DNA of 64,000 nucleotides from Mycoplasmatales bacterium (GCA_965226165.1 OZ245334.1:629947-693946); one strand, 5' to 3'; shown: positions 6,377 to 63,289, counted from the stretch's first letter. Translations and numbers: made by a program. Notes: generated by a model not told the origin, from the sequence alone.

Positions 6377-8759
<2,383 letters not shown>

Positions 8760-8795
8760 ATTAATTTCCTATAATCATTATTATTTTATCATATA

Positions 8796-16140: not shown

Positions 16141-16981
16141 TTAATTTTTTATTAATTTATTTTTTTCTTCAATGAAATAAAAAATTTCATCATTATATTT
16201 ATCGTCAGATAATATTTTCAAGTTCTTGTCACTTAATTTTTCTATTTTGTTTTTTGATATATTATGAAATTTATTATATCCTCTTATAACTTTTAAACAT
16301 TTTCAAATTCCTGGTTCTTCAAATGTAATATAATTTAATTCAAATAATTTATCATGTAAGATACACAAGACTAAACCATTGTTTGGGCTTGTTTTTTCTT
16401 TGCCCTCGCTTTTAGATCAAGGTAAAATGTGTGAAGCTATTAATAATCTCTTCTCTTCTTCTTTTCTCCCAATTCCACAAACTGCACATATTTTATGTTT
16501 ATCTTTCAGTCTTTTAGCTCATTTTGTGTGGTTTCTTCTTGTTTTTACATAACTTGAAACCCATCTACCTTCATCAACTGGCTTGTTGTCTTCATCATTT
16601 TTAAAGTTTTTTTCAGTTTCCTTGTTTATTTCTTCAAATGTTTTTTTAGAATCACTATTTCTTAAAGGATGTTTTTTTAAAAATTGTTTATACTTTAAAA
16701 CATTAATGTGTTGTTTGTAATTTTTAAATAACGTATATACCCCCCCCCTGATAATTAAATAAATAAATTCCTTTGTGTGATTTAATATTTCCTTTTTGTC
16801 TTTTTGAATAAATTAAGAGAACATTACAATCAACACTTCATTTTGGTGTTTTTGTTTTTAAATTTAATTGATTATATCTTTGAGATGCTTTTTGAATTAA
16901 AATATCTTTGGTCAATTGTTGTCTATTTTCTAAAATTTGAACAACATTAAAAACTTCTTTTGCTTTTATTAATTTTTTCAT
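16141..16981 (-). pseudogene. HNH (HNH_2-type) endonuclease, reading frame broken at a poly(G)9 tract (phase-OFF or pseudogene)
   Basis: The N-terminal 85 codons (MKKLIKAKEVFNVVQILENRQQL...) end just after the G9 run. The rest lies in the next frame and includes KICAVCGI...LLIASHILPWS...NNGLVLCILHDKLFE. Total length is 841 nt, so 8 or 11 G would restore the frame. Confidence 0.65.
16740..16748. repeat. homopolymeric C9 (G9 on the coding strand) tract
   Basis: The run is ...tatatac ccccccccc tgataatt. It is the only long G/C run I saw in this very AT-rich window. Confidence 0.8.
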
Positions 16982-33499: not shown

Positions 33500-34192
33500 A
33501 TGACAAAATTAATTCATGCTTATATTATTGAAAACCAAACAATAGCTAAATTAAAAGTTTTAACAAAAAACTTTGTTAAAACACTAATTTGTGATGATTT
33601 AAGTGATAAATGCTTAAAATGTTTAGCAATTGAAAATGAGCAAAATAGTAATGTTTTATATTTTGATGGTTTTAGTGAAAAAATTAAAAACCAAGATATT
33701 AAACTTGCTAAGGAATTTACTAGTTATAAAAATGATAGTCAAGAAATTAAAATAGTGGTTTTACATGGGTTTGAATATGCCACCAAAAAAGCAGCAAATA
33801 GCTTTTTAAAATATTTAGAAGACCCTTATGAACAAACCATTTTTATTATCACTACTGCTAATAAAAATTTGGTGCTACCCACTATTGTTTCTCGTTGTGT
33901 TGATGTTACTAATAAAAAAGAAGATATTAAAGTAGAAACTAAATACCAAGAAGAAATTAATCTTATTAAAGCAAAACAATATTGAGACATTAATTGAGCC
34001 AGTTTTAATAAAAATAATATTTTAGATTTTTTAATAACTTTATCTAATAATATTGATGTTAAAACTAATCCTTTATTTGTTAAAGGGATATTACAAATTA
34101 TTGATCAAGTTAAATCAAATGTTACTTATGATTTAGTATTAGCACAAATTTTAAAATTATGTGAAGAGATTAGTGATGGAAAAAGTAATTAA
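33500..34192 (+). CDS. holB: DNA polymerase III delta' subunit
   Basis: Starts MTKLIHAYIIEN.. and contains ANSFLKYLEDP and TIVSRC motifs. It extends through two TGA codons. Its position after tmk matches M. genitalium-type order. Confidence 0.75.
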
Positions 34193-34874
34193 TCATAACA
34201 ACTTCCCTAATTTATATCTTCTAGCGACTCCAATTGGAAATTTAAAAGATGTTTCAATTCGGTTAATTGAAACATTAGAATTAATTACTATTTTGCTTTG
34301 TGAAGATACAAGAAAAACAGGCCTATTATTACAAAAGTTAAATATTAAAAATAAACCTAAACTAATTAGATATGATGTTACTAATGAAAATAAAATAACT
34401 AGTAAAATAATTAACCTCTTTAAAGAACATCAAAACATAGGTTTATGTAGTAATGCAGGCACACCATTAATTTGTGATCCTGGCTTTCCTTTGGTAAGAG
34501 ACATTCAAAAATTAGATATTAATGTTGTTTCTATTCCTGGTCCAAATGCTTATTTAAATGCTTTAGTTGTTAGTGGTTTTCCAACTAATCATGTGTTTTT
34601 AGGTTTTATTAAAAATAAAGAATCACAGATTATTAAACAATTAAATGAGGCAAAGCAATATAAATTATCAATTGTTTTTTATGTCTCATGTTATAAGTTA
34701 TTAAAAACTTTAAAAATAGCTAATGATATTTTTAAAGATAAAGAAATTTTTATTGCTAAAGAATTAACCAAATTATATGAAACCCATTATCAAGGTGAAA
34801 TTAATGATGTTATAAAAAAATTACCACAAACTCTAAAAGGAGAATATGTGGTAATCATTAATAATGCAGGTTAG
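34176..34874 (+). CDS. rsmI: 16S rRNA 2'-O-ribose C1402 methyltransferase
   Basis: Contains LYLLATPIGNLKDVSIR..LCEDTR (tetrapyrrole-methylase fold). An alternative GTG start lies at 34161. Confidence 0.85.
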   Translation: MEKVINHNNFPNLYLLATPIGNLKDVSIRLIETLELITILLCEDTRKTGLLLQKLNIKNKPKLIRYDVTNENKITSKIINLFKEHQNIGLCSNAGTPLICDPGFPLVRDIQKLDINVVSIPGPNAYLNALVVSGFPTNHVFLGFIKNKESQIIKQLNEAKQYKLSIVFYVSCYKLLKTLKIANDIFKDKEIFIAKELTKLYETHYQGEINDVIKKLPQTLKGEYVVIINNAG

Positions 34875-34930
34875 TTATTGTTGTCTTTAAAAAGTGTATA
34901 ATAAAATTATGAAAGTCATAGGTAAAAATT

Positions 34931-35131
34931 ATGAAGAGAATTGCAAAAACAAAAACATATGAATTGAAAAGAATAAGTGATATAGACATTATTATTGAAA
35001 AACAAAAACCAAATAACTTTAAAGTCAAAAGTTTAGGAATAAATAAAAGGCAAAGTGCCTTTCGAGAAGTGGGGAAAGACAGATTTATATTGGATTATAT
35101 TCACATACTTGTGTGTATTTGATATGAATAA
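34931..35131 (+). CDS. hypothetical protein (66 aa)
   Basis: This is the track ORF plus WYE after one TGA. No motif recognised. It sits at the left edge of the defence island. Confidence 0.25.
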
Positions 35132-35149
35132 AAAATAGCAATAAAGACT

Positions 35150-35644
35150 TTAAAATAAATCAATAAAGGGATTTTCTATTTTCCTGTGTTTTAACAAATA
35201 TCGAAAGACCCGATTAGGGTTTATAGGTTTATTATAATACGTCTCAGGTAATTTAATTTTTTTTAATTTTTCATTTTTAAATAAATATGAATATGATTGA
35301 TTTTTGAAATTATAAATCTTTTCAATACAATCCAAATAACCATTTTTATTAAATGAAACATACCCATATTCAAATATTAGATCACACGATCCGCACAAAA
35401 TTAAAAAGTTATCCCAATCTCTCATTTCATATTTATTGCAAACACTATATTGCTTTATATGTGAAGCTCTTAAAAATTTTTTGTTAGAAAGACCACATAT
35501 CGCGCACTTCTTATGCAATTGTTTTAAATCATTAGCAGTTTTTGTGTGACCCTTTCTATAACTTGATAAATATTCTACTTTTTCTCCCAACTCTATTCTT
35601 CTTTTAGCTTCATTGCTTTCTTTATGAAACTTATATTTAATCAT
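35150..35644 (-). CDS. HNH (HNH_2-type) nuclease, third gene of the GHKL/Z1 operon
   Basis: Contains KCAICGLSNKKFLRASHIKQYS....WDNFLILCGSCDLIFEYGYVSF. Its start lies 21 nt after the Z1 stop. Confidence 0.7.
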   Translation of the reverse strand: MIKYKFHKESNEAKRRIELGEKVEYLSSYRKGHTKTANDLKQLHKKCAICGLSNKKFLRASHIKQYSVCNKYEMRDWDNFLILCGSCDLIFEYGYVSFNKNGYLDCIEKIYNFKNQSYSYLFKNEKLKKIKLPETYYNKPINPNRVFRYLLKHRKIENPFIDLF

Positions 35645-35665
35645 CTTTTCTTTGTCTCTAAAAGA

Positions 35666-37249
35666 TCATATTGTTTTATTTTGTATGATTTTTTGTTCCA
35701 CAAATTTTGCCTCATAATTTTTATTTTTATTTTTCAAACTATAATTATTTATTACATTTTCTATATTTGAAAATTCTTCTGTGTTTTTTGAAGAAACTTT
35801 ATCTATTAAATCATCTTTAATAATCCCAAACTTTTTATTTTTCAATAATTCTTCTGTTACTTTAATAATTTCATTTTCTTGCTTTTCTTTTTTTTTCAAA
35901 ATTTTGTCATTAAACAAATTTTTATATTTAGATTTATTCATATTGTAAAAATTAATAATTTCATCAATGTTGTTTCTTTCACAAACATTCTTTAATTCTT
36001 TATTTATTATTTTTATTTCTTTGTATTTCTTAATTAATTCTAATTCTAAATAAACATTTGGTTCTTCTTTTCTATAACCTAAAAATCTAGCATTTTGCAT
36101 TAATATATCATAATTAGTGTTTTTATTTTTTGAAATAATAATATCAGTTAATCCCTCAAATGTGTTTCCTCTAGAAAAGCAAAAACCTCCAATTAATATT
36201 TTCTTTTCGTTCTTTATAGTTTTAAAACTATTATGCTTGTCGTGCTTGTTTGAATTTATAATTAAAATATTGCTTTTTCTTAAATGCCATCATTTTGTTA
36301 ATTCTAATAACTGGTTTTTATTAATATTTAATGTTTCTTTATTTTTTTTTCTATTTGGAGTGTTATCATCTATGTATTTAACAAAAAAAAGCACTATCAA
36401 TTTTTTTATTTGCTTATGAAATTTTTGCTCAGTTTTTACATTTATCAAAAATTCATTGTCTTTTTTATTATCAAGTAGCCACTTAATCAAAACACTTATT
36501 ATTTTATTGCACTCTTTAATAGGCAATTGAATACCCAAATCTTCTATTTCTTTTTTAGAAAAAAATTCTTTTATTTGTATTTGGTTATAGTTGTCAAAAT
36601 TATGAAAACCCAAATATTTTTGGCCATATTCCAAAACACAAACCCCTTGTATATTTATATATTTTTGTGCATATTTAGAAAAAATATTTCAAAAAGGAGT
36701 TGCCGAAACACCAATATATTTTGAACCTTCATAATCAAACAAAGTGTTTAAGCCATAATCTATTAAATTATCTTTGCTTCAATAATCACATTCATCATCA
36801 AACACAACAATTTTTTTGTTTAATTCTTTAGCTTTTTTAACAATTCTTTTAAGGTCGTTTGTTTGTTTTTTTAAAAATATAATTTGTTTGTATTTCCTTC
36901 TATTAATAAAAATATCAATTTCCTCATTAATATAGCAATAGATATTATAATCATTATTATTGTAAGCTTTTTTAAATCTTGAAAATGTTTGATCATTCAG
37001 GGAATTTCTATCGCCTGTTAAAACAATTATTCATGAATAATTTTGTTCAAAAAATCAACCAGATAAATAAATCATATTGTTTGTTTTACCAGACTGGACA
37101 TCACCATATAAAACAATTCTGTTATTTTTATTAATTTCTTTTATAATTTTATTCAAATTTTTATCAAGAATTTTTTCAAAGTTTTCTTTTTGAATAGGAT
37201 CTTCAATTTTCTTTGATAGATTAAGCTTTAAGCTATTTAATATTTTCAT
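35666..37249 (-). CDS. Z1-domain P-loop/helicase-like protein (527 aa)
   Basis: Three track ORFs share one frame (1584 nt). Motifs: GDVQSGKTNN (Walker A), VFDDECDYW, GVSATPF, GGFCFSRGNTFEGLT and ARFLGYR (Z1 signature). Confidence 0.8.
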
Positions 37250-37262
37250 TTATTCAATTTTT

Positions 37263-39170
37263 TCATTCTTCTTCATTCTTGACTCTTTTACCTTCAAACA
37301 AAAGAACAATTATAAATGCAAGTACTGAGGCATTATAAAGTTTTTCTTTTCTATTTTCTGTTTGATCTTCATTGATTTCATCAAATGTAATATTTTTATG
37401 TGCATTAAATCTATATAATTTAACCTGTCTATCTCCAACTATATCTTTAAAATTTTTATTCAATTCATCTCTTTGTTCCTGACTAAAAGTTCCAGGGTTT
37501 TCTTCATAAAAAGTTTGTACAAACTTGTTTGGTTCATCAAAATTTTGTATTGTTAGGGTAGGCAAGGTTTCATCAATAAATTTTACACTTAATAAAATTG
37601 ACTTTTCTTCATCTTCATCAGCCATAGAAAAAAGTCATTCCTTAGGGGTTATATTAATTCTTGGAACCTCATTCATTTCACTTAAAGATCATTTTATTTT
37701 GCTATCATTAAAAAAAACTTTTGACCCATCATCATTTGAAAAATTGTCATTTCATTTTGTTAAATAAGCATTTGCAAAAAGAACAACATAATAAAGTTTC
37801 ATTTTTTTAAAAACTTCTTTATAAAAACAATCTTTTATTCTTTTAATTAATTCTTTGTCAAAATTTATTTTATTTTTTTCTGTCCTTATTTTATCATTTA
37901 TTGGTAAAATAATTTCTAAATCAAAATGTTCTAATTTTACTACCCCAGAACCACCCCTTTTTCCAACAAGGTTTTTAATTCACGATTTTTGAGGTATAGA
38001 TTTCTCCATAACATGAGGGCCCCTGTCATGTTGATATAATCTTATTCCTAAATTTTTCTTTCCCAAACTATTACTATTTTTTATTTCAATAGTTTTTCTT
38101 TTTGATGAAGAGTGTGGTATTCCAAATATTATTTTGAATGAATCTTCTTCATTCAAAAAACCATCTAAATCTGATATTCAATTAAAAGCTCATTTTAATT
38201 CTTCTCCTTTTTCAGAAGGAAGACTTAATAATTTTTTTCACATTAAGTTTAAATCATATTTTCTTCCATCAATTTGCCTTATATTATTGAATGTTGTATT
38301 ATCTTTTCACTCCAAAAATGATTCAAAAGTTTCAACAAATGATGTTTTTATCCAACCCACATTGTTCAAATATTCAAATTTTCTTTTAAGAATAGTTTCT
38401 CAATCTTCTTCATCACCAATTTTACAAAAAATATCAAGATTTTGTATAACAAAAAAATCTCTAGGAATCTTTTTTTCAATTATTCATTCATAATCAATAG
38501 TTTCAGTATTTTCAAATATATTTATTTTTATTTTTATTGCTTTGTTTGTTAAAAAATTTTTATAATACCTAATAGCCACAAAGTAACAAAATAATTGAAA
38601 ATTATCAATTTTAAAAATTTTATCTTTATCTTTTCTTTCATCATAAAAATCAAAAATTCTAATAAGCGTGCCTGTTGTTTCAAAATCACTTGTTATTCCT
38701 TTTATTTTTGAATGTTCAATTTCTCTAAACTTAATAATTCCTGAATAATCTTTCCATGTAGTGTCTGAATCATCTTTTGAATAATGAGCATTAACACACA
38801 ATGCCTTTTTAAAAATTTTGTTATTTTTATTAAAAGAAGAACTAAAAATTTGGCCTTGATATCCAAAAAATTGAATAGCATCTTTCATCCCCACATTATA
38901 TTCAGATTTAGTGTCTTTTAAGTTTTCTGAATATCTTGTTATTGCGGAATCTCATATTTCTTCCTTAATTCCTTCACCATTATCTTTTACTCATAAATGA
39001 TCTTCGTTTCAAAAAATTTCAATAATTAAATCTTTATTTTGTTGTTGATATTCTAAAGAATTGTCAATTAATTCACAAATAAAATATTTTCAAGGAATTT
39101 TACTTTTTTCTCCCTCGCTTCTCCATCTTGCTTTTTGATCAATTATAGCTTTATGCAGATCTCCTATCAT
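37263..39170 (-). CDS. GHKL-family (HATPase_c_3-like) ATPase (635 aa)
   Basis: The N-terminus MIGDLHKAIIDQKARW...FICELIDNSLEY...LWVKDNGEGI carries the Bergerat N and G1 boxes. I translated 37626..38483 codon by codon and found no TAA or TAG. Confidence 0.8.
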
Positions 39171-39491
39171 ACAAACCCCTTAAATATATTAATTATATCA
39201 ATACTATCACACCAGAATCTCCAACACAATATTTTTGAAAACATTTTCAATAATTTAAATAAAGTGTTAAAATAAAAATGTAGTTATGAGATAGAATTTA
39301 GTTATTAAATGTATATTAATAGTCATAGACTACATCAATTTAAAGTTTTAAATCTTTTTTTCAAATATTTTTTGTTATTAAGTTTTTATTTTTGTTTTTT
39401 CTTTTGAGAAGCTTTGAAGTTTTCATTTTTAGACTCCTTTTTTAAAAGTAAATGTTTTTGTTAATTTTAAATTAAAACTTAAATTGAACTC

Positions 39492-39525
39492 AAAAATAAC
39501 TTATTTTAATTAATAAGTTATTTTT
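39492..39525. repeat. perfect 14-bp-stem inverted repeat
   Basis: aaaaataacttatt / ttaatt / aataagttattttt, in the divergent spacer upstream of the GHKL operon. Confidence 0.6.
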
Positions 39526-39579
39526 TAATATATATAACTAAATTAAAGGGATTTTATATTAATGTATAATTAAGTTATT

Positions 39580-39795
39580 ATGAAGCGTCGACCTAGCGAT
39601 TATATTATTATTATATTTGTCATCATGTTTTTTGCAGTTGCTGCTTTTTACATCTTAGTTCCTTCTGGCCAAGATGGCATTTCTTTAATTGTGCAAAATA
39701 CAGTTAGAAGATATTTTTTTAATAATTTATGAGCTTGAATATTTGCTTTCTTTATTCTAGGAGGAATTATTTTAGTATCAATTCTTTTTTATTAA
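39580..39795 (+). CDS. hypothetical small membrane protein (71 aa)
   Basis: Translation: MKRRPSDYIIIIFVIMFFAVAAFYILVP...LWAWIFAFFILGGIILVSILFY. A TATAAT lies upstream. Confidence 0.3.
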
Positions 39796-39825
39796 AAAAG
39801 AAAAAGATAATGTTATAATTGCTTT

Positions 39826-39972
39826 ATGATTGGTCTTGGTGAAGTTTGAATTAGCTTTCTTGTATTTTGTTTTTTGGCCATTGTTTCCTGACCCTTTACT
39901 GAAAATACAATCATTACTATTTTAATTTCTTTTTTGTTAGCATCTTGATTCTTATTTTCTTCTGGAAAATAA
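39826..39972 (+). CDS. hypothetical small membrane protein (48 aa)
   Basis: Translation: MIGLGEVWISFLVFCFLAIVSWPFTENTIITILISFLLASWFLFSSGK. Weak call. Confidence 0.2.
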
Positions 39973-39979
39973 AAACAAT

Positions 39980-42138
39980 TTATTTTAAACCAACAATTTT
40001 TCTATATTGCATAATCTTGTGAAGAGGCATTTCTATCATAGGTGCTCATCTTAGATTGTTTATATGATTTACAAAATTAAGCCTATTATAAATATTTTTT
40101 CACTCTTCCTCTATTTCCAATTTTTCTTTTTCTATAATATTCATTAAGCCTTTAAATTTACCATTATTTCATTCATTTATTTTGTTTTCACTTAAACTCA
40201 ATATTACTTTTTTTTCAATTTGAAATCGTATTTGCATTGTCAACATATATTTATTTAAAACATAGTCAAAAAAACTTTCAATTTCATTTTTTGATTTATG
40301 TTTATAATTCAGAATGAAATCACTCACCGTTTTTTCCTTAATTGATTTATTTTTAAATAAAAAGTTCAAAGGACTATTGTTTTCTTGGAGCAAGTTAATT
40401 AGTTGCATAGGAGCGATTTCTTTAATTTCTTTTACAAGAACAAAGAACGACTTACTATTCGACCTTCAATGTCTATAGTTTTGGTCAATAAAATCTTTTA
40501 ATTTTTCTAAATCTTTTTTTTCTTCTTTGCTTTTTGCATTTAAAAAATAATTACTTGTAATTTCCCTCAATATTGTTGCAAACATCAATACAGTTTCTTT
40601 ACTACATTTGTCAAGGTTTTTGTCTTTCTTAAAATTAGTTGTCAACCATTTAGACATTTTTTTTAAAACATTAATATTAATTTCTTTTACAATAATGTCT
40701 GCTTGACTATATGAGTCCATAAAAAAGAATTTAGTATTATCATTATTTTTTGCAATTGCAAAATTACTTAACAAGTGATAATTATGAGTTAGTATTAAAA
40801 TGTTTTTGTTTTTATCAAAATTATTTATTATTTCAATAAAGATATTAATATTATCCAAATCCAAAGAGGAAACAGGATCATCAATTACTATGAAATCTTT
40901 TTCTTTTGCTTCAATTAAAGCAATTATTAAATACAAAATTTTTCTTTGCCCATTTGACCCGTACTCATTAAGTTCATCTTTTGAAATTGTTTTTGAATTA
41001 TTCTTATTTTCAAAAACAATATTAGTCTCTTCATAATAATTTTTAATTTCTTTAATCTTAATTGTTCACATTAAAGCATTTATTTTTAAACTTTCCTCAT
41101 TAATTTCTTTAGCAATTTCATTATAATTTTTAACAAAATTTTTATTTTCATTTATAATTTTTTTATGTTCAATTTGAAGCTGATCTTGATATTTTTTAAA
41201 TTCTCCTATTATAAGGCTATCCCACATTTCAATTAAAAAATTTTCTGCAATCTTTAATTCTGCTATTCCCCTCGTGGATAACTTTTCTATTTCCTTGTGA
41301 TTGCCTTTTAAATATCGCAACGCTAAATAAGCATCCCTATTAAGTTTACTAATTCCGTTTTCATTAAATTTTTCTTTAAGGTTCTCTTCAGCATTCTTTA
41401 TGTCGATTCAATGATTTTCATATTTATATTGAAAGTTTAGAGAACCAGACTCATTTATGTTTTTGATTAGTGGAAAATCTCTGTCAAGATTTTTGTTAAA
41501 ATATTTTCCAACCTTATCATCTAACTTGTTAAATTTTATCCTTTTATCAACCTTAGTAGCTTTTTTAATTGCATCTATTTTGTTTTTATATAATTTAATC
41601 TTATCAAAAAGATCTTTATCAATGTGCTTGGGGCTTTTTAGTAAAATTTTATTTTCAATATCCTTTATTTCCTCTATGTTTTTATTAGGATTATTAACTA
41701 TTTTTTTAATTATCTTAGATATTTCGCTTTGATTGTCAATTTCTTTATTATCAAAAAAAATTGAATACTTAATTTTTAACTCTTTAAAAACTTTTTCAAT
41801 AATTTTAAAATATCCTACATGTAAATCACTATTTATAGAAAATATTATTTTTTTGTTAACTTGATTTTTGATTAAATCACTATTTTCGCTATTTTTAATT
41901 TCATCAAGAAAATTTTCATCTATTATAAATATTTGATTACTTTTTATATCAATTTGAATAAAATCTTTATTAACCGTTCCTTCTAATGAAGTTTTAAAAA
42001 TTTTTTCTTTCAAACCTTTGAAACCTTTTGTTATGCTTGTTTTTCCAACCCCATTTGGTGCAAATATTATATTTTTTCACTTAAGTCAAAATTTATTTCA
42101 TCTTTTAGACCATAAAGATTTTTTATTTTCAATTTCAT
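39980..42138 (-). pseudogene. AAA_13/ABC-type (PrrC/RloC-like architecture) ATPase, N-terminal 23 codons out of frame at an A6 tract
   Basis: MKLKIKNLYGLKDEINFDLSEKI-stop is in one frame. NIIFAPNGVGKTS (Walker A) is in the next. Track ORFs 41408, 41066, 40466 and 40169 share that second frame through TGA. Signature and Walker B read GSNGQRKILYLIIAL...FIVIDDPVSSLD. The 3' end near 39980 was derived by hand. Confidence 0.6.
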
Positions 42139-42270
42139 TATAACTTCTTTTTTTTATTTCCAATCTTATGAATGCCCTTCTTAAATTATAAAAAAAATGT
42201 TTAAAAACTTCATTTAAAAATTGAAAATTTCTTAAAAATTTGTTTTAATTAATTAAGGAACGCTAGACTC

Positions 42271-42849
42271 ATGGAACGAAAATTAAAAGATATGATTTCT
42301 CAAGAAATGGTTTTATGAAGAGATCAATCAAGGAGACACAACTTTTCACCAAAAGGGTGAATAATATCAGAAATAGTAAAAAATTATTATAAAGATTTTT
42401 TCAAAAATAAAGAAGAGTTTAATATTAAAGAATTTTGTAAAAAGTTAGAATTAGAAGTAGAAAAAATAGATTTAAATTTTAACAGTCTAGACAAAAATAT
42501 TTGAGGAATGCTGGATCGAAAAAACAAAAAAATTTATATTTCTGAACATTTGAAAAATGAACAAACCATAAGATTTACAATAGCACATGAATTAGCTCAT
42601 TTTTTAATAGACCAAAATGAAACCAATGATATATATTATAGAGATAGAATTAATATTGGTAAAGAAGTAATATATAATGATTTTGCTGCAAGTTTTTTAG
42701 TTGATATCAAACAAATTCAAGATTATATAGACAATAAAAAATTAACTTTTCGAGAATTATCAAAAAATTATAAAGTTCATTATGAAACAATCGGCATTTT
42801 AATTGACCAAGAGTTAAGAAAAAGAAAAAAAATAAATCAAATTAAGTAA
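42271..42849 (+). CDS. ImmA/IrrE-family (COG2856-like) zinc metallopeptidase, no HTH domain (192 aa)
   Basis: Contains ..KKIYISEHLKNEQTIRFTIAHELAHFLIDQ (HEXXH). The ATG at 42271 is in frame with track ORF 42508 through three TGA codons. Confidence 0.75.
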
Positions 42850-42851
42850 TT

Positions 42852-43421
42852 ATGGCATTATCTAAGAAAGAATTAAACAAAATTAAAGAATTAGAAGATG
42901 AAATAAAAAGACTTGATTGAAGATTAAGAAGACAAGAGAAAATTTTATATGATAAAAATACTGAAATTAATGAATATCTTTCTAAATATAACTCATTTCA
43001 ACAAAAAATTGAATCAGAATTTACTATTCTTAAAAACTCTAAAGAAATTGAATCGAAATTTCTATATGAAAACTCAAGATCAAATTTGCACACAATTACT
43101 ATTTTTTCATTTATTTTAATTCTGTCATTAACTATTTTGAATTCTATAATAATAAACAGGCTTGATAAATTTCAAATTAAAATTAAAGATGGAAAAGAAA
43201 TTATTGAAAAAACATATGATGGAAATGCAATAAATACAATAATTTCATTTTCATATGCATATGCTCTTCTTGGTTTTTTCACAATCTTCATTGTTTCAAA
43301 GCTATTTGATAGCTTGTGAAAATTTAAAGACAAAAAAATTTTAACAACAATAACCATAATATTTGTGAATTTATCAATAATTTGAATAGCAATTTTGTTA
43401 TATTTACTTTTTATTAAATAA
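42852..43421 (+). CDS. coiled-coil plus three-TM membrane protein (189 aa)
   Basis: It starts 3 nt after the peptidase stop. MALSKKELNKIKELEDEIKRLDWRLRRQEKILYD... is followed by three hydrophobic helices (ITIFSFILILSLTILNSIII, ISFSYAYALLGFFTIFIV, IIFVNLSIIWIAILLYLLFI). Confidence 0.55.
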
Positions 43422-43523
43422 AAATTAAATTTCTATAATAAATAATACAAAAAACATAATATAATAAAAAATATTTATATTTAATATATATTTTTAGTAT
43501 AATATTTACAAATGAGGTGTAAA

Positions 43524-44819
43524 ATGAATAAAAATAACAAAGCAAACAAAATAATTTCTTTGAAAGCAAAAAATGTTTTTTCGTTTTATGATGAAACGAA
43601 AATATCTTTTTTGGGAAAGACAAGAAAAAAAGATAAAAAAAGTTTTTATCAATTTTTAAACAAAAAAAATCAAGTGAACATTTCTAACATAAATGGTATT
43701 TTTGGAATTAATTCATCAGGTAAAACAAACCTAATAGTTAAAACAATTCAAAAACTTAAAAACATAATAAAATCAAAAAGTGTTGAAAAAGAGTTGTTAG
43801 ATGTACCCTTTTTTAATTCGAGTAATAAAGAATCAACCATAGCTTTAGAATTTCTAACATCAGCAAAATTTTATTATTTTGAAATCAAATTTAAAAATAA
43901 CAAAATCACACATGAAAAACTTTCTTTTAAAGAAAAAAAAGTTAATAAATACCAAAATATTTACAAAGTAGAAAATAATAAGTTTTATTTAAAAAACAAA
44001 TTTATTAACAAAATAGAATTAAAAGATGAAACAATAATTGGCAATACAAGTTTATTTAATATGTTTTTGTATAAAGAAAAGATTGAAGCATCAACAAAAA
44101 GAAAACATATTGAATTAGTAAAAGACTTTGTTATAAATAAAATTCATTTATTAACGCCAGAAACAATTAGTTTTGAAGAAACATTATCAAAACTAGCAAA
44201 TAAATCTTATGTATTTCAAAAATTTAATAACATCGCTAAAGAAATAAATTTAGGTTTTGAAAAAATTGAATGCGAATTAAATGAGGTTATAACTAAGGAT
44301 TTTAAAATGGAGCAAAAAGAAAATGGTTTTTCTTTCTTTTCTGCAAAAGACAAAGTCGTTAAAAAAATTTCTCCTAAATTTTATAGATCAATAGATACTG
44401 ATAAATACGAATTAATTCCTAAACTTGCAAACACCTTATCTAGTGGAACTATTCAATTTATTGAAACTATAGTATTTTTACTAGATGCTGTTGAAAGCAA
44501 TCATATTTTAATTTGAGATGAATTTGGCAGTTTTCTTGATGATGAATTAATAGAAGCTATATTTGAAATCATTGCTAATAATGACTCAGTACAATTAATT
44601 TTTAATTCTAATAAAAAATCAATTATTTCAAAGCTAGATTGAAACCAAATTTTTATTGTTAAGTTAAATAGGCATTGAGAATCTAGTTTAATAGAAAGAA
44701 ACTATTCAAGAATTCAACAAGTGGAAATAGAAAAGAAATATCGAAACAATTACTTTGGCAATCTTAATAATTTTAATGTGATAAGTATTCTCAAACATTT
44801 TGATAAAGCATTTGGTTAG
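43524..44819 (+). CDS. soluble ABC-type ATPase (AAA_15/AAA_21-like, 431 aa)
   Basis: GAGGTG RBS and an upstream TATAAT. Motifs: GINSSGKTN (Walker A), LSSGTIQF (signature) and HILIWDEFGSFLD (Walker B, after a TGA). Confidence 0.8.
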
Positions 44820-44824
44820 CTTTT

Positions 44825-45406
44825 ATGAAAAAAGTAAAAAGTAAAATTGATATTTCATTTTATGTTGAGGGACAAGTTGAACAATGATTAATAAATTTTA
44901 TTAATGAAGAGTTTTCATTCCATAAAATTTGCAATATAAAAAATCCTGAAGTTACTAAATATAAAAAAAATATTGAATATATAATTCAAAAAGTTTATAA
45001 ATTAGAAAAATTTAATGAAAACAAACACTTAAAACCAATAGTTATTTTAATTTATGATAACGAAGTAAAGGTTTCAAAAATATACAAAAATATACACCAC
45101 ATTCATATTAACAAACCATCAATTGATTATCCAATTGCATTATCATTAGGAATAAAAGCTAACAAAAATGATCAAGTTAGAAAAATAAAATCAAAAATAA
45201 AGATAAAATATAAAACTACAAAACAAAACTATTTAAGAGAAAAAAGATTAAAAGATGATATTAACTATAATATTTTGTTTAATCATTTAGGAAAATTAGG
45301 TTTGTTTTTCAAACATTTAATTAATATTTTAAATAAAAATAAAAATGCTAACCAAAGCAAAGTGAATGAAACAATAAAAAAAATAGCACTTAAAGTGTTT
45401 AAATAA
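44825..45406 (+). CDS. small DUF4276/RloB/Toprim-like partner protein (193 aa)
   Basis: It starts 5 nt after the ATPase stop and is absent from the track (TGA at codon 21, no later ATG). MKKVKSKIDISFYVEGQVEQWLINFI resembles the DUF4276 N-terminal VEGxTE motif. A later IVILIYDNE acidic patch is present. Confidence 0.5.
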
Positions 45407-45464
45407 ATCTATTATTTTTTATTTAAAAATGAAATAATATTTATAGGTGATAAAGGAGATATAT

Positions 45465-46472
45465 ATGAGTGTAAAAATTAATATATATGATAGCAAAAAA
45501 CATGATGTAAAATTTTTTACTAAATATAATAAAGATAATTATCAATTAAATTTTTTAGAATATAAAATATCTAAAAATATGAACCTAAATCAATTCAAAA
45601 AAGATTTAAAAGATGTAGACATTATTGTTGTTTTTGTTAATGATGATGTTTCTAAAGAAACAATTCAAGTTTTAAAAGAAACAAATGTTAAATTGATTGC
45701 TACAAGATCAGCTGGATTTAATCATATTGATTTAGATGCAGCAAAAGCAAATGATATTAAAGTGGTAAGAGTGCCAGAATATTCACCCCACTCAATTGCA
45801 GAACATGCTATTGCCTTGCTTTTAACAATTAATCGTAAAACCCATCGGGCTTATTTAAAATCAAAAATGAATGATTTTACTTTAGATGGTTTAATTGGTT
45901 GGGATTTATATGGCCAAACTATTGGAGTATTTGGCTATGGGAAAATTGGTAAAATTTTTGCTAACATTATGAAAAGCTTTGGTTGTAAAGTCATAGTTAA
46001 CTCTTTACCAAGTGATAAGGAGGCAATTATTAAAGACGGGCATCAATTTGTTGATTTAAAAACCTTGTTTGCAAAATCAGACATCTTATCTCTTCATTCA
46101 CCATTAACTCCTGACACTAAGGAAATTATTAATAAAAAAACCATATCCTATATGAAAAAAGGCATAGTTTTAATTAATACTAGTCGAGGAGGTTTAATTA
46201 ATTCTAATGATTTAATTGATGGTTTAAGAAAAAACATTATTTCTTTTGTTGGTCTTGATGTTTATAGTAATGAAGCCAATTATTTTTTTGAAGATAAATC
46301 AAAAGATAATATTAATGATCCAATTTTAATGCAATTATTACAATCTAATAAAGTTTTAATTACACCTCATTCAGCCTTTTTTACTAATAATGCATTAACC
46401 CAAATTGCCAAAGTTACGCTTTTTAATATCAAGCAGTTTTTAAACAAACAAAAATTAGATAATCAACTATAA
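45465..46472 (+). CDS. D-isomer-specific 2-hydroxyacid (D-lactate) dehydrogenase
   Basis: AAGGAG RBS. Contains GVFGYGKIGKIF (NAD fold) and NTSRGGLI motifs. Confidence 0.85.
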   Translation: MSVKINIYDSKKHDVKFFTKYNKDNYQLNFLEYKISKNMNLNQFKKDLKDVDIIVVFVNDDVSKETIQVLKETNVKLIATRSAGFNHIDLDAAKANDIKVVRVPEYSPHSIAEHAIALLLTINRKTHRAYLKSKMNDFTLDGLIGWDLYGQTIGVFGYGKIGKIFANIMKSFGCKVIVNSLPSDKEAIIKDGHQFVDLKTLFAKSDILSLHSPLTPDTKEIINKKTISYMKKGIVLINTSRGGLINSNDLIDGLRKNIISFVGLDVYSNEANYFFEDKSKDNINDPILMQLLQSNKVLITPHSAFFTNNALTQIAKVTLFNIKQFLNKQKLDNQL

Positions 46473-46530
46473 AACATTTCTTTTATTTTTAAAAAATGTA
46501 AAATAAATATCATATAAAGGTTATATATTT

Positions 46531-47719: not shown

Positions 47720-47775
47720 TTTATAGTTTTAATGATAAAATAATAAGGAAATTTAATATTAAGTAGGAATAATAG

Positions 47776-56578: not shown

Positions 56579-59500
56579 TTATGAATTTGCTTCTTTGTAT
56601 TTGGAAAAAAGTGATTGAGCTCTAGGAGTATTTTGGAATATTCTTTTTGTTTTTTCAAATGAACTTTCAACCCAAGATTGAATATCATTATAAACTTGTT
56701 TACTGGCTAAATAATCACCAATTTTTGGATTTAAACCAACTTCTTCTCAATATTCTTGCCATTTTTTTGAACTTCAATTTTTATAAATATTTTCAACAAA
56801 TAAAGAATTTATAAAAATATCCTTAATTAAAGTCTTTTGATTTGCTGTAACAAAAGTATTTAATGATGCTTTAAATTGAGTAGTTTGTTTAAATTTTTCT
56901 TCGGTTCTAACATTAGGATCAATTCAACTTTGATAAGCTTTTTCTGTTTCATTCTCATCTTTAAAAAATGCTTTAGTGTTGTCATAGTTATTAATTCAAT
57001 TTTTTCAATGTTGTTGATATTCATGACTATTTAAAAAATCAGCATTTGTAAATACTTTTTCATTTTTAAAGTTATCATAATCATTTTTTTTAGCACTCTT
57101 TGAATAATCATCATAGCCTTTTTTAAATCCTAAATCTTCTTTTAAATAATATTCAACAAAATCATCTTTATAAAAATCACTATTTAATTCATAATCTCTT
57201 CTTGTTCTTATTAATGGGTCTTCTCAATTTTTATAATCATTTAAAGCTTGTTTTGAATTATGATAAATTTTCACATCATTTTTTGAAAGAAAATTGTTAT
57301 ATGCAGTTTCATAAGCTTTTTCTTTTTGAAAGTTTTCATTTGTTAAGTTTGGTTGTTCTCATTTTTGATAATCACTTAAAGCTTCTTTTTTATAAATTTC
57401 TAAAGCATTTGCTTTGGTTGCCCACTTTTTCAAATCAAGATTAAATTGATTAGATTTTAAATATTTATTTTTTAATCAAGTGTTAAAAACATTAATGTTT
57501 TCTTCATCTTTTTTAAACAAAGCAACACTTTCAACTTTTAAATTAATTCAATTATTAAAATAAGAATCTTTATCATCACTTGCTTGGAATTTTAATTCAT
57601 TATCTTTTTGCAATTTAGCATTGTAAGCATTATATTTTTGTATTGTGTCTTTATCTTGTAAAAATAAGTCCCCAAGATTCTCACTATTTGTTCATTTATA
57701 TAAGTCTTGTAAAAAACGATTATTATTATTTGTTTTATTATAGTCAGCTTTGGTTCTAACCAAAGGATCTATTCAATTATTGTAATCAACTTTAGCTTCA
57801 TCACTTAATAAATATCATTTTTTTCCTTTTGCTAAAATTCAAGCACTCAAAGCATCTTCATATGCTTTTAAGCCTTTTTCAAAATCACTTGCTTGGTGTT
57901 TTTCAGGATCATTTCATTGATTATAATCTTGATTTGATTGATCATCACTTTTATAAAGGTTAAAAACAAAATCATTATTTTCATTGATCCATTTATCTAA
58001 ATCATTTTTATATGCTTCTTTTAAATAATAGTTTTTATATCAATTTAAATAAATGTTTGTTTTACTTTGATCATTAATCATTTGGTCAATAAATTTTTTG
58101 TGCTTTCTTTGCATTTTTAATTCTTGATTAACAATTTCATTTCAGTAATTATTGTAATCTAAATTATATTGTTCATTTAAATATTTTTGATCATATTGTT
58201 TTAAAATATTATCATTATGTTCCTTAAATTTTGTTTTAAAAAAGGAACTATCTTCAAAGATATCTGGCAAAATATTTGCTTTTATTTTTGACCAAGTATC
58301 TAAATCATTTCATTTTTGAAGATTGTTATATTTATCAGTCCATTTAGTTTTTTCAAGAATTTCTTCTTCAAAATATTTTATACCACCAGTTGCATCATTA
58401 ACCCAAGAATTAAAATCATTGTTTCAGTTGCTTTGTTTTGCCAAATATTTTTCTTTATTTTGTTTGGCAATTTCTTTTTTTCCAACATCTAATTTTAGCC
58501 ATTGTTTAAAAGCTAAATTTTGATCATTTTTTCATTGGTTGAATGCAATGTTATGACTATTATCTTTTTCAAAATCACTTTTTGTAATTTTTTTAGCAAC
58601 TTTTCAATGTTCATAATCCCTAACAATTGCTAGATCATCTTTTTTATATAAATCTTTTAAAAAGTTATTGTGAATATCAACCTGTGCATCAATTCATGAA
58701 TTGAAAGGTTTATTTGTCTTAAATCATTTGCTAAATCAATCCTGATAAGGTTTAAAATTATTAAAATAACCAGTTTTTGTTTTGTCTTTAGATAATTTTT
58801 TTAATTCAAAAAGTTCTTTTTTCCATTGCTCATTTTTGAAAAACTCTTCATTAGCATAATAAGAATTTTTAAAATAATTTTCTTTATTTTGGGAATCTAA
58901 TCACTTTTTAAAGTTGCTATTAAAATCATTAGAATAATAATAACTTTGCAGGGCAATTTGTTTGTTTGATAAATTATTATATTTATTATTTAATTGATTA
59001 ATTTGATTTAAACTCAATTTAAAATCATCAATAACAGCAATTTTATTTTCACTTCTCCCACCGTCATTACTTCTTCTTGCTTGAGAAAGCCACTTATTTT
59101 CAAAATATTTTACAAATAGTTTATTTAATTCATCATGTTCATAAAGATTATAAAATTTATCATATTGCAATTTTACTTTTCGAAGACTATAAGCATTTGG
59201 ATTGTTATTTTTTCAATTTTTGAAAGCTAAAGATTTTTCAAATTCATCAATAGCATTATAATTAATCATCAATATTTGATTATCTTTAATTTTTGTTTTT
59301 GAAAGTAAACTAATGCTTCCATAATCACTATCCACCTCTGCTTCTTCTCTATATATTTGGTGATCATTTGTGCTTGAAATTTCTTTTAATTTTTCCTTAA
59401 AACTATTAAACATTCCTTCAATCACCGAGTCTAATCAAGCCTGATCATCTTCACCTCTAAGTCTCATTGTGCGCATTCAATTCATTATGTAGCGATCTCG

Positions 59501-62500: not shown

Positions 62501-63289
62501 AAGTAAATCTTGATTATCTACTTGTTTTAAAAGTCATTTATTGTAACTTTTCTTTCCATAAATTTCTTCTCATTTTTCCATTGTTGGTTTTTGATTTTTT
62601 TTTGTCACCCATTTTTTTTGTTCTTGACTAAAAGCATCACTTTTTTTTCAAGCATTTAACAATAAAAGATTTTTTTCAGGTTTTAAAATCCATTCCTTGT
62701 GTAAATCTTTAGCATCCTTTGTGTCAATTCAAAAGTCTTTTGTTCTTTTTTTTGGGCCACTAGATATTCAATTATTCATTGTGCTTAAAATTGGTAGATT
62801 TTCTTGCCTTGCTTTTTGCAAGTAATGAGCTCCCAAAGGTTTTTGCCCTTCAGGTAAATTTTTTCAAGAAGCAAAATACTGAGTCGTTTTATCTTTTTTT
62901 AGCATCCACTTTCTTCAACTTTGAATGCTATCTTTTTGACTTTTGGCTCATCTATTTAAATACTCATCAAATCGATCATCCTTTTGAAACTCAGCAGTCA
63001 AAACCTTTAAGGCTTCAGGAGATTTTTTCCATGTCTCAAAAGCTTTTGTTGCCTCACTAGTTTGAAATCATTGGTCAAAAGTTATATTTCTATTATTAAA
63101 ACTCGAAGTAATTTTATCGACTAAAGATTGTGGTTTTTTAGTTTCTTGAATTTTAGAATCTTTTTTTTCATTATCTATTTTTTGTTCTTGTAAACCCAAA
63201 AAAAGTGAATTATCCATAAGATAAAAAGAACTTATCCCCATTGTTAAAAATGTCACCATTCCTAGGTTATTTTTATTGTTTCTTCTCAT
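56579..63289 (-). CDS. giant Trp-rich secreted/surface protein (~2,236 codons)
   Basis: Track fragments 63068.., 60191.., 59213.. and 58901.. all share the frame of the ATG at 63289 and the TAA at 56579 (6711 nt). I translated 63289..60360 codon by codon. It was open except for one doubtful 60-nt stretch (62101..62160). 60360..56579 was translated only quickly. The N-terminal anchor is LGMVTFLTMGISSFYL. Confidence 0.6.

What the first reader, a model, noticed from the sequence alone, without database searches (positions are those of the whole stretch)
34875..45464. 10.5-kb defence-type island with no mobility genes, inserted after the dnaX-recR-tmk-holB-rsmI block
The housekeeping run stops at rsmI (34874) and resumes at the dehydrogenase/hpt/rsmG/parAB genes (45465 onward). 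Every sizeable gene in between is an ATPase, nuclease, peptidase or small membrane protein. There are four separate modules: 35150..39170, 39980..42138, 42271..43421 and 43524..45406. I found no integrase, transposase, tRNA or flanking direct repeats. Clustering of such modules is the hallmark of defence islands. Several of these modules do not match a named system as far as I can tell.
Basis: partly seen in the sequence, partly recalled or inferred. Interest (0 to 1): 0.75.

Follow-up and report, generated by a model that had tools for sequence, protein, structure and literature searches.

The report
Integrase-free defence hotspot in a mycoplasma
This 10.5-kb stretch is a real anti-phage "defence hotspot" wedged between two housekeeping genes of an uncultured mycoplasma, and near-identical relatives carry different defence cassettes at the same spot; this is a known kind of genome feature, newly seen in this lineage, with a few poorly characterised genes worth testing.

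Summary
Read with genetic code 4 (TGA = Trp), window 34865..45401 carries seven intact genes plus one or two small membrane ORFs between rsmI and a 2-hydroxyacid dehydrogenase/hpt/rsmG/parAB block.

- C: an orphan 727-aa ABC-type ATPase.
- D+E: an ImmA/IrrE-type Zn-protease plus a coiled-coil, 3-TM protein.
- F+G: an AbiLi-like ATPase plus a new 193-aa partner.

There is no tRNA, integrase, transposase or convincing flanking repeat.

This is a core-gene-flanked defence hotspot that most likely diversifies by homologous recombination. That is a known kind of feature. Module functions are predicted, not shown. Interest is moderate.

The parts
34161..34874 (+). rsmI, the left core-gene boundary. 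Similarity to L088 (95% nt) ends at 34864.
   Evidence: Homologs carry PF00590 TP_methylase.
34931..35131 (+). 66-aa ORF of uncertain status, possibly a gene remnant.
   Evidence: ORF list. No Pfam hit. A weak 17-aa match to a 57-aa ORF in the L088 island.
35045..35063 (-). Terminator-like hairpin downstream of gene A.
   Evidence: The only terminator-like site in 34700..45600. The shuffled-sequence mean was 1.1 sites, so it is consistent with function but not proof of it.
35150..37249 (-). [not shown]
37233..39170 (-). Gene B: GHKL (MutL/MORC-like) ATPase, 645 aa. It overlaps A by 17 nt, so B and A form a B-to-A operon.
   Evidence: HATPase_c_3 3.9e-6, above the Pfam cutoff. ELIDNSLE and DNGEGI motifs. 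The B+A pairing is conserved in L085.
39229..39536 (.). Conserved non-coding 'anchor' segment. It forms the right-hand boundary of cassette slot 1 in all four close genomes.
   Evidence: 99.7% identical to L088 4077-4384, while the flanks are 95% identical. About 70% identical to sequence upstream of both GHKL genes in L085, and retained in L001, which has no GHKL gene. No significant RNA fold.
39493..39524 (.). Perfect AT-rich palindrome (13-nt stems). It lies inside the 73-nt sequence that is duplicated around D/E in L088.
   Evidence: It occurs once in the window, with 0 expected by chance.
39580..39795 (+). Small two-TM membrane protein (71 aa), part of the conserved backbone.
   Evidence: ORF. 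Homologous ORFs occur in L085, L001 and L088. Two hydrophobic segments. No Pfam hit.
39826..39972 (+). Possible second small membrane ORF (48 aa), uncertain.
   Evidence: Conservation was not demonstrated.
39980..42163 (-). Gene C: solitary ABC/SMC-type ATPase, 727 aa. A roughly 350-aa, mostly helical insert separates Walker A from the signature/Walker B motifs, followed by a roughly 240-aa all-helical C-terminal domain. It is present only in the window.
   Evidence: AAA_21 6.3e-7; AAA_13 9.1e-4, below cutoff. Only the ABC core matches PDB sequences. No homolog found in the 5.8-billion-protein search, JGI metagenomes, IMG/VR or plasmids. Absent from L088, L085 and L001.
42271..42849 (+). Gene D: ImmA/IrrE-type Zn-metalloprotease (HEXXH = AHELAH) with no HTH domain.
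   Evidence: Peptidase_M78 1.2e-9. PADLOC capP 2.4e-14, RmrA 1.9e-6. PHROG 87 metallo-protease 3.4e-15. Homologs lie at the same site in L088 (56%), L085 (40%) and L001 (40%).
42852..43421 (+). Gene E: an 80-aa N-terminal region read as coiled coil from the sequence, followed by three TM segments. It starts 2 nt after D.
   Evidence: Hydropathy. The only Pfam hit is a sub-threshold DUF2951 match. The D-E pairing is conserved in L088, L085 and L001.
43524..44819 (+). Gene F: AbiLi-like AAA_21 ATPase.
   Evidence: PADLOC AbiLi 1.1e-33 and AriA 1.9e-9. Pfam AAA_21 3e-8. phrog_5836 2.2e-28. 51% identical homolog in the same slot in L088.
44825..45406 (+). Gene G: 193-aa partner of F, belonging to a new small family. 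Conserved YVEGxVE and LIYDxE motifs suggest a TOPRIM-like nuclease; this is inference.
   Evidence: No hit in Pfam, PADLOC, NCBIfam or PHROGs. Only 2 relatives among 1.84 billion representative proteins. The F-G pairing is conserved in L088.
45465..46472 (+). D-2-hydroxyacid dehydrogenase, the right core-gene boundary. The 95%-identical flank shared with L088 resumes at 45402.
   Evidence: 2-Hacid_dh_C 4e-46. Aligned blocks. It also forms the right boundary in L085.

Best explanation
The region is a chromosomal defence hotspot. It is a fixed site between the core genes rsmI and ldhD/hpt, close to the replication-origin gene block, where anti-phage cassettes accumulate and are exchanged between strains without a dedicated recombinase.

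The window's version carries four independent modules.

(2) C. A single-protein ABC/SMC-like ATPase with a helical C-terminal effector domain, in the style of an Abi or anticodon-nuclease system.

(3) D+E. An ImmA-like Zn-protease operonic with a coiled-coil membrane protein. It may be a protease-gated membrane effector or a sensor/regulator. It belongs to the conserved backbone of the hotspot.

(4) F+G. An AbiL/PARIS-style pair in which an AAA_21 ATPase sensor controls a small nuclease-like effector.

The hotspot has two variable slots. Slot 1 runs from the rsmI 3' end to the 308-nt anchor. Slot 2 runs from E to ldhD. C is a lineage-specific insertion between the small TM ORF and D. Turnover most likely occurs by homologous recombination through the conserved flanks and the internal anchor after DNA uptake.

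Shown: gene content, domain assignments, intact catalytic motifs, location, strain-level cassette replacement, and the deeper coalescence of island alleles.

Inferred: anti-phage activity of each module, the biochemical mechanisms, and the recombination route.
For: Synteny without the island:
- M. neurolyticum has rsmI followed directly by hpt.
- L002, L083 and L084 have rsmI-thyX-like-hpt-hpt-rsmG-parAB.

Same site, different cargo:
- L088: DpnII REase + D12 MTase, D/E, S78-like gene, F/G.
- L001: GmrSD + DpnII REase + split MTase, D/E, a DUF4011 fragment.
- L001 and L085 are 97.6% identical on both sides of the swapped cassette.

Divergence between the window and L088:
- Flanks are 95% nt identical, while D-G are about 68% nt and 43-56% aa identical.
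- Codons that encode the same amino acid differ in 3.5-21.5% of cases in the flanks and in 27-48% of cases in D-G. The island alleles were therefore replaced, not merely fast-evolving in place.

No tRNA, integrase or transposase.

Short duplications at cassette edges in L088: 53 nt of the rsmI 3' end flank the DpnII cassette, and a 73-nt repeat flanks D/E.

Pairings conserved across genomes: B+A (L085), D+E (three genomes), F+G (L088).

Literature:
- AbiL is an AAA ATPase plus a TOPRIM_OLD/RloB effector (PMC10440598).
- Core-gene-flanked defence hotspots with no MGE hallmarks are proposed to spread by homologous recombination (PMC10250203).
Against: - No function was tested; every activity is predicted from domains.
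- B has no PADLOC hit, and G has no hit in any library.
- C's hits cover only the generic ABC core.
- E has no significant family.
- A reaches only 47.5 bits against the 1500-bit cutoff of the NCBIfam MzaC model, and no methyltransferase or Vsr gene is linked. A/B is therefore not a member of the described MZA-type or Dcm-linked operons.
- D/E is present in all four close genomes, so it could be a conserved regulatory or envelope function rather than defence.
- Composition does not mark the island as foreign.
- All close relatives are metagenome contigs of unknown provenance. Two of them (L001 and L085) come from one sample.
Confidence: 0.8

Rival explanations
1. The region is a decayed mobile element (prophage, phage satellite or ICE remnant). 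It integrated next to rsmI, lost its integrase and structural genes, and keeps only its defence and immunity cargo.
For: D is a phage-type ImmA-like metalloprotease (PHROG 87, 3.4e-15), and F matches a phage protein family (phrog_5836, 2.2e-28). The L088 version carries a Peptidase_S78 (prohead protease) gene between E and F. L088 also shows short direct repeats at cassette edges, including a duplicated rsmI 3' end.
Against: There is no integrase, recombinase, transposase, att-like repeat, tRNA or structural gene in the window. Four genomes share the same backbone at the same site but differ slot by slot, which does not fit one element inserted once. No relatives of C, D or F were found in IMG/VR.
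Confidence: 0.12
2. The genes are lineage-specific housekeeping or regulatory genes (DNA repair helicase/MutL-like ATPase, ABC ATPases, a regulatory protease with a membrane partner) that happen to sit together. This would not be a defence island.
For: D/E and the small TM ORF are present in all four close genomes. B, C, E and G lack specific defence-family hits. Composition and codon use are host-like.
Against: A, B and C are absent from a genome whose flanks are 95% identical. The alleles that are shared are 43-56% identical, against 93-99.6% for the flanking genes, and show 3-6 times deeper synonymous divergence. The equivalent slots in relatives hold unambiguous defence genes: a DpnII R-M system, GmrSD, and a CRISPR array. 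F is AbiLi-like at 1e-33, and A matches restriction-enzyme helicase and HNH models.
Confidence: 0.05
3. The region is a graveyard of inactive defence genes. The ORFs are remnants no longer under selection.
For: Elsewhere in the window there is a broken HNH_2 ORF (16141..16720), so defence-gene decay does occur in this genome. L085 carries a truncated GHKL paralog, and L001 has a split methyltransferase.
Confidence: 0.03

Closest known systems
Core defence hotspots (cDHS1/cDHS2) of Pseudomonas aeruginosa and the hotspot-type defence islands of E. coli (PMC10250203, PMC10121019)
   Same: A fixed chromosomal site bounded by conserved core genes. Content varies between close strains. There are no obvious hallmark genes of a mobile element. 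Turnover is attributed to horizontal transfer plus homologous recombination through the flanks.
   Different: This one is very small (10.5 kb, against a 26-kb median for cDHS1) and sits in a roughly 0.75-Mb code-4 Mollicute genome next to the origin-proximal gene block. It has no tRNA or tmRNA at its edge. It has an internal conserved backbone (a 308-nt anchor, a small TM ORF and D/E) that divides it into two exchange slots.
[not shown]
   Different: The nuclease is an HNH_2 domain fused to the helicase, rather than a separate restriction-fold protein. Among the 21 hits, only the query itself and one other sequence (P0122) show this fusion. No Dcm/Dam methylase, Vsr or AIPR gene is linked. A scores far below the MzaC equivalog cutoff (47.5 against 1500 bits).
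H-subunit of the ATP-dependent restriction enzymes CglI/NgoAVII (PMC5861437)
   Different: No R-subunit (B3-like DNA-binding domain plus PLD nuclease) and no methyltransferase. Here the partner is a GHKL ATPase, and the nuclease is a fused HNH_2 domain.
AbiL of Lactococcus lactis (AbiLi + AbiLii) and PARIS AriA/AriB (PMC10440598)
   Same: A two-gene operon with an AAA_21 ATPase first (AbiLi 1.1e-33, AriA 1.9e-9), followed by a small second gene starting 5 nt downstream. The pairing is conserved in a relative.
   Different: G does not match the AbiLii/RloB, DUF4435 or OLD-TOPRIM models. Only an EGxxE ... DxE motif pattern suggests TOPRIM. The G family has just two detectable relatives.
ImmA/IrrE-type protease modules: RosmerTA (RmrA), CapP/CapH of CBASS, ImmA/ImmR of ICEBs1 and phages
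   Same: D is an M78 Zn-protease with an intact HEXXH motif. Its best defence-library hits are capP (2.4e-14) and RmrA (1.9e-6). It is encoded in a tight two-gene operon.
   Different: D has no XRE/HTH domain, and no adjacent HTH repressor gene exists. The partner is a coiled-coil protein with three TM segments and no known family.
RloC/PrrC anticodon nucleases and other solitary ABC-ATPase Abi proteins (AAA_13/AAA_21)
   Same: C has an ABC ATPase core split by a long helical insert, followed by an all-helical C-terminal domain. It is a single-gene module in a defence context.
   Different: The AAA_13 hit is below threshold (18.5 against 36 bits). No CxxC zinc hook is visible in the sequence. 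No anticodon-nuclease domain is recognisable. No homolog was found anywhere.

Membership tests
Defence island / core defence hotspot | Two or more recognisable defence systems clustered together | tested here: met
   F is AbiLi-like (1.1e-33). A matches restriction helicase/HNH/MzaC models. D matches capP/RmrA. B matches HATPase_c_3.
Defence island / core defence hotspot | Bounded by core genes that are adjacent, or nearly so, in genomes lacking the island | tested here: met
   M. neurolyticum has rsmI followed directly by hpt. L002, L083 and L084 have rsmI-thyX-like-hpt.
Defence island / core defence hotspot | Content varies between closely related genomes at the same site | tested here: met
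   Window against L088, with flanks 95% identical. L001 against L085, with flanks 97.6% identical. Deeper synonymous divergence in shared alleles.
Defence island / core defence hotspot | No hallmark genes of a mobile element (the 'core' type, as opposed to the MGE-borne type) | tested here: met
   No tRNA. No integrase or transposase domains in genes or gap ORFs. No significant flanking repeats. Caveat: an S78-like gene is present in the L088 version.
AbiL (AbiLi/AbiLii) | AbiLi-type AAA_21 ATPase | tested here: met
   PADLOC AbiLi 1.1e-33, covering model positions 40-295 of 326.
AbiL (AbiLi/AbiLii) | AbiLii / RloB-type TOPRIM effector encoded immediately downstream | tested here: inconclusive
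   A gene does sit immediately downstream, and the pairing is conserved in L088. However, G has no AbiLii, RloB or TOPRIM hit in Pfam, PADLOC, NCBIfam or PHROGs. Only the conserved YVEGxVE and LIYDxE motifs point that way.
AbiL (AbiLi/AbiLii) | Abortive-infection phenotype | not testable with these tools
   Requires phage challenge experiments.
[not shown]
   B: HATPase_c_3 at 27.4 bits against a 25-bit cutoff. N-box and G1 motifs present.
[not shown]
   [not shown]
[not shown]
   None of A-G has a methylase, Vsr or AIPR domain. The L085 copy of the module has none either.
[not shown]
   NCBIfam NF041933: 47.5 bits against a 1500-bit cutoff, and only residues 327-421 are matched.
[not shown]
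   No such genes in the island. Only the motor is shared.
RosmerTA / CapH-CapP / ImmR-ImmA | M78 (ImmA/IrrE) Zn-protease | tested here: met
   Peptidase_M78 1.2e-9. capP 2.4e-14. AHELAH motif.
RosmerTA / CapH-CapP / ImmR-ImmA | XRE-type HTH domain, either fused or in an adjacent repressor gene | tested here: not met
   No HTH family hit in D, E or the small ORFs. D matches only the protease part of the RmrA models.
RloC/PrrC anticodon nuclease | AAA_13-type ATPase above threshold, with a C-terminal anticodon-nuclease domain (RloC also has a CxxC zinc hook) | tested here: not met
   AAA_13 at 18.5 bits against a 36-bit cutoff. No CxxC in the insert (sequence). The C-terminal domain has no hit. 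The structure model is unusable, with pLDDT 38.

The most novel reading that the evidence does not exclude
The rsmI-ldhD slot is a lineage-wide, recombinase-free defence hotspot of a minimal-genome bacterium, and its cargo includes several systems with no described counterpart:
- the orphan 727-aa ABC-ATPase C, acting as a single-protein system;
- an HTH-less ImmA-like protease paired with a coiled-coil 3-TM protein (D/E), conserved in all four close genomes, acting as a protease-gated membrane effector;
- an AbiLi-like ATPase working with a new 193-aa effector family (G);
- in the same slot of a relative, a compact 818-aa double-HEPN CRISPR effector undetectable with current Cas13 profiles.
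Probability: 0.35. Interest if true: 0.65.

Novelty: new member of a known kind. Interest (0 to 1): 0.4.

Why it matters
Defence islands and core-gene-flanked hotspots are well established in Proteobacteria. My two literature searches on defence islands and hotspots did not turn up one described in Mollicutes, whose genomes are near-minimal and use code 4, so standard table-11 pipelines miss their genes.

It does not overturn any concept.

Tried and rejected
- Two genome-contig scans gave nothing useful. The single-protein RsmI query found no relative. The RsmI alignment query used patterns that were too generic and returned mostly unrelated phyla.
- The look-up of encoding contigs and the representative search refuse table-4 proteins containing TGA-Trp. 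I worked around this with proteins returned by homology searches and with a TGA-free fragment of G.
- I guessed that the gap ORF at 39580..39795 was an FtsK_4TM remnant, which would have been a mobility trace. No Pfam support at E<=5. It is instead a small TM ORF conserved in the relatives.
- The 35-nt, 77% direct repeat D14 (35130-35164 and 45378-45412) sits at both island ends. It is one of more than 60 similar AT-rich families in 14 kb, so I treated it as chance.
- The 308-nt anchor as a structured RNA: z-scores of -1.2 and -1.7, and no Rfam hit. Rejected.
- Single-sequence AF2 of C gave pLDDT 38 and was not used for a fold search.
- C, D and F against IMG/VR, C against JGI metagenomes, and C and F against plasmids all found no relatives.
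- C against F shows only ATPase-motif similarity, so they are not paralogs.
- Two L085 spacers searched against IMG/VR gave no exact match.
- A literature search for MZA/MADS descriptions found nothing usable.

Full report
**1. Genetic code and gene calls**

The window is about 25% GC. Under table 11 the region breaks into many short ORFs. Read with table 4 (TGA = Trp) it resolves into long ORFs throughout, so the source is a Mollicute.

Between rsmI (34161..34874) and a D-2-hydroxyacid dehydrogenase (45465..46472) there are seven intact genes:

| Gene | Coordinates | Strand | Length |
|---|---|---|---|
| A | 35150..37249 | - | 699 aa |
| B | 37233..39170 | - | 645 aa |
| C | 39980..42163 | - | 727 aa |
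| D | 42271..42849 | + | 192 aa |
| E | 42852..43421 | + | 189 aa |
| F | 43524..44819 | + | 431 aa |
| G | 44825..45406 | + | 193 aa |

- B overlaps A by 17 nt.
- C's start is a TTG and is uncertain.
- E starts 2 nt after D.
- G starts 5 nt after F.

**2. What the genes are**

  - PADLOC: 'Helicase_II' 9.7e-21, MzaC 1.8e-10, HNH 7.8e-9.
  - An AF2 model built on 16 sequences is confident for residues 1-445. It matches two-lobed SF2 motors, including the restriction motors LlaBIII and EcoR124I HsdR. The C-terminal third is poorly modelled.
- **B** is a GHKL ATPase. HATPase_c_3 scores 3.9e-6, above cutoff, and the ELIDNSLE and DNGEGI motifs are present.
- **C** is an ABC-type ATPase. AAA_21 scores 6.3e-7; AAA_13 scores 9.1e-4, below cutoff.
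  - Walker A is at residue ~36. The signature, Walker B and H-loop motifs are at ~400-466.
  - A long helical insert separates them, and an all-helical ~240-aa C-terminal domain of unknown family follows.
- **D** is an ImmA/IrrE Zn-protease with an AHELAH motif and no HTH domain. Peptidase_M78 scores 1.2e-9, capP 2.4e-14 and PHROG 87 3.4e-15.
- **E** has an ~80-aa N-terminal region that I read as coiled coil from the sequence, followed by three hydrophobic segments. It has no significant family.
- **F** is AbiLi-like. PADLOC AbiLi scores 1.1e-33 and AriA 1.9e-9.
- **G** has no hit in any of the four libraries. A search of a 172-residue TGA-free fragment of G against 1.84 billion representative proteins found only two relatives. 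Both share the motifs YVEGxVE and LIYDxE. I read these as TOPRIM-like, which is inference.

**3. Mobility signatures**

- No tRNA or tmRNA occurs in the whole window.
- The only Rfam hit is SRP RNA.
- No integrase, transposase or recombinase domain appears in any gene or in ORFs of the intergenic gaps.
- The repeat search gave only low-identity AT-rich matches. One 35-nt, 77% pair lies at both island ends, but it cannot be distinguished from more than 60 similar families.

**4. Composition**

- Island GC is 21.9% against 25.9% elsewhere. The difference lies in codon positions 1 and 2, reflecting K/N/I-rich proteins.
- GC3 is 12-18%, against 15.2 +/- 2.6% for the background. Synonymous codon likelihood is within the background range.
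- The island genes use TGA-Trp 41 times against TGG 9 times.
- The cargo is therefore at home in code-4 genomes. Composition neither proves nor excludes transfer among Mollicutes.
- The local GC-skew inversion at 35-42 kb simply reflects A, B and C lying on the minus strand.

**5. Comparative evidence (the decisive part)**

RsmI homologs led to contigs of relatives.

*Distant relatives (RsmI 51-59% identical) have no island.*
- L002, L083 and L084 have rsmI-(0-1 small ORF)-thyX-like-hpt-hpt-rsmG-(purAB)-parAB.
- Mesomycoplasma neurolyticum LR214951.1 has rsmI followed directly by hpt.

*Close relatives all have an island at the same site, with different content.*

**L088** is nearly conspecific with the window.
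- Flanks are 95% nt identical: window 33644-34864 and 45402-47800.
- Flanking proteins are 93-99.6% identical.
- Its island reads rsmI-80aa-DpnII REase-D12 MTase-two small ORFs-anchor-D'-E'-small TM ORF-Peptidase_S78-F'-G'-ldhD.
- A, B and C are absent.
- D', E', F' and G' are only 56%, 43.5%, 51% and 49% identical to D, E, F and G.
- Among codons that encode the same amino acid, 27-48% differ in D-G, against 3.5-21.5% in eight flanking genes. The shared alleles therefore coalesce much deeper than the genomes do. This indicates allelic replacement by recombination rather than fast evolution in place.

**L085** has housekeeping proteins 67-83% identical to the window.

**L001** comes from the same sample as L085.
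- It is 97.6% nt identical to L085 on both sides of the cassette.
- Downstream of E' it again differs, with a DUF4011/PDC-S37-like fragment.

**6. Architecture of the hotspot**

*Slot 1* runs from the last ~10 nt of rsmI to a non-coding 'anchor' at window 39229..39536.
- The anchor is 99.7% identical between the window and L088, more conserved than the flanks.
- It is ~70% identical to sequence upstream of both GHKL genes in L085.
- It is retained in L001, which has no GHKL gene.

*The conserved backbone* follows.
- It consists of the anchor, a 71-aa two-TM ORF (39580..39795) and D+E.
- In the window only, C is inserted between the small ORF and D.

*Slot 2* runs from E to ldhD.
- It holds F+G in the window and in L088.
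- It holds the double-HEPN protein plus CRISPR array in L085.
- It holds other genes in L001.

*Cassette edges in L088.*
- A 73-nt direct repeat (92% identical) flanks D'/E'. It contains the perfect palindrome found once in the window at 39493..39524.
- A 53-nt copy of the rsmI 3' end flanks the DpnII cassette.
- I take these as scars of recombination at short shared sequences; this is inference.
- The anchor shows no significant RNA structure.

**7. How it most likely works**

The site behaves like the 'core defence hotspots' described in P. aeruginosa. Those also have conserved core flanks, no MGE hallmarks and highly variable cargo, and are proposed to move by transfer plus homologous recombination (PMC10250203).

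Module mechanisms are inferred from family knowledge.
- **F+G.** AbiL and PARIS pair an AAA ATPase with a TOPRIM_OLD/RloB effector (PMC10440598). F fits the ATPase. G fits only at the motif level.
- **D+E.** This may be a protease-controlled membrane effector or a sensor/regulator. It lacks the HTH partner that defines the RosmerTA, CapH/CapP and ImmR/ImmA modules.
- **C.** This looks like a solitary ATPase-effector protein in the RloC/PrrC/Abi style, but it fails the membership tests for those families. No relative was detected in the homology search, JGI metagenomes, IMG/VR or plasmids.

**8. Rivals**

- *Decayed prophage, satellite or ICE.* This cannot be fully excluded, given the phage-type protease D, F's PHROG hit, and the S78-like gene in L088. 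It does not explain the slot-wise variation around a common backbone, nor the absence of any recombinase or att site.
- *Non-defence role.* This is contradicted by presence/absence between 95%-identical genomes, by the deep allelic divergence, and by the unambiguous defence genes in the same slots of relatives.
- *Pseudogene graveyard.* This is contradicted by intact long ORFs and intact motifs.

**9. Verdict**

The feature is a new member of a known kind: a core-gene-flanked defence hotspot, here in an uncultured mycoplasma lineage.

Nothing here is categorically new, and no function has been demonstrated. Interest is moderate (0.4). The main value is as a compact hotspot model and as a source of testable candidates.

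Noticed in passing
L085:272..3741 (relative; ENA ERZ25073789 ctg148855): In the same slot that holds F/G in the window, L085 has an 818-aa protein next to a CRISPR array. The protein carries two HEPN-type RNxxxH motifs: LIRNYYAH about one-sixth of the way in, and YFRNKVFH near the C-terminus. The array has 13 repeats of 36 nt (GTTTTGATCCCGTGCAAATTAGCACCGGACAGAAAC) and 12 unique spacers of 30 nt. The repeat folds into a terminal-paired hairpin (z = -5.2). No cas1, cas2 or cas9 lies nearby. The protein has no PADLOC, Pfam or PDB-sequence hit, and the array region has no Rfam hit. It looks like a compact, divergent type VI (Cas13b/bt-like) system in a Mollicute. Two spacers gave no exact match in IMG/VR.
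   Followed up: partly
window 13265..16049 (-) and 16141..16720 (-): There is a second defence locus on the other side of the origin-proximal block. It has an HsdS-like specificity protein (Methylase_S 9.5e-36) and a 595-aa N6_Mtase protein (7.3e-25). The N-terminus of the latter shows a PD...ExK-like motif (GRPDY...IECK), so the arrangement resembles a BcgI-like type IIB enzyme. Next to it lies a stop-interrupted HNH_2 ORF, 37.5% identical over 96 aa (tblastn) to the HNH_2 domain of gene A.
   Followed up: partly
window 39229..39536 vs L088:4077..4384: This 308-nt non-coding segment is 99.7% identical between two genomes whose housekeeping flanks are only about 95% identical. It marks the shared right-hand boundary of the cassette-exchange slot in four genomes. 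It shows no significant RNA structure. A recent recombination tract seems the likeliest cause.
   Followed up: partly
L088:6118..6591: A 157-aa Peptidase_S78 (phage prohead protease family) gene sits alone between the small TM ORF and the F homolog in the near-conspecific island. It is the only phage-structural trace seen in any version of the hotspot.
   Followed up: no
L088:8663..9314: Between the G homolog and ldhD, L088 has a 285-nt direct repeat (72% identical) containing an 86-nt inverted repeat (93%). The window lacks this roughly 700-nt stretch, with G ending 58 nt before ldhD. It may be a small repeat element or a recombination scar.
   Followed up: no
[not shown]
   Followed up: no
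L085:6073..7479 and 8134..10017: L085 carries two tandem GHKL paralogs, one of 468 aa (truncated) and one of 627 aa. Each is preceded by a copy of the anchor-like upstream sequence, which is evidence of local duplication within the slot.
   Followed up: no
window 56579..63289 (-): A single 2236-aa ORF under table 4, containing 78 TGA-Trp and 24 TGG codons. It was not analysed.
   Followed up: no
window 45465..46472: The 2-hydroxyacid dehydrogenase that bounds the island on the right is at this position only in the close clade (window, L088, L085). The more distant relatives have a thyX-like gene here, or nothing. It may therefore be an older insertion at the same site.
   Followed up: partly
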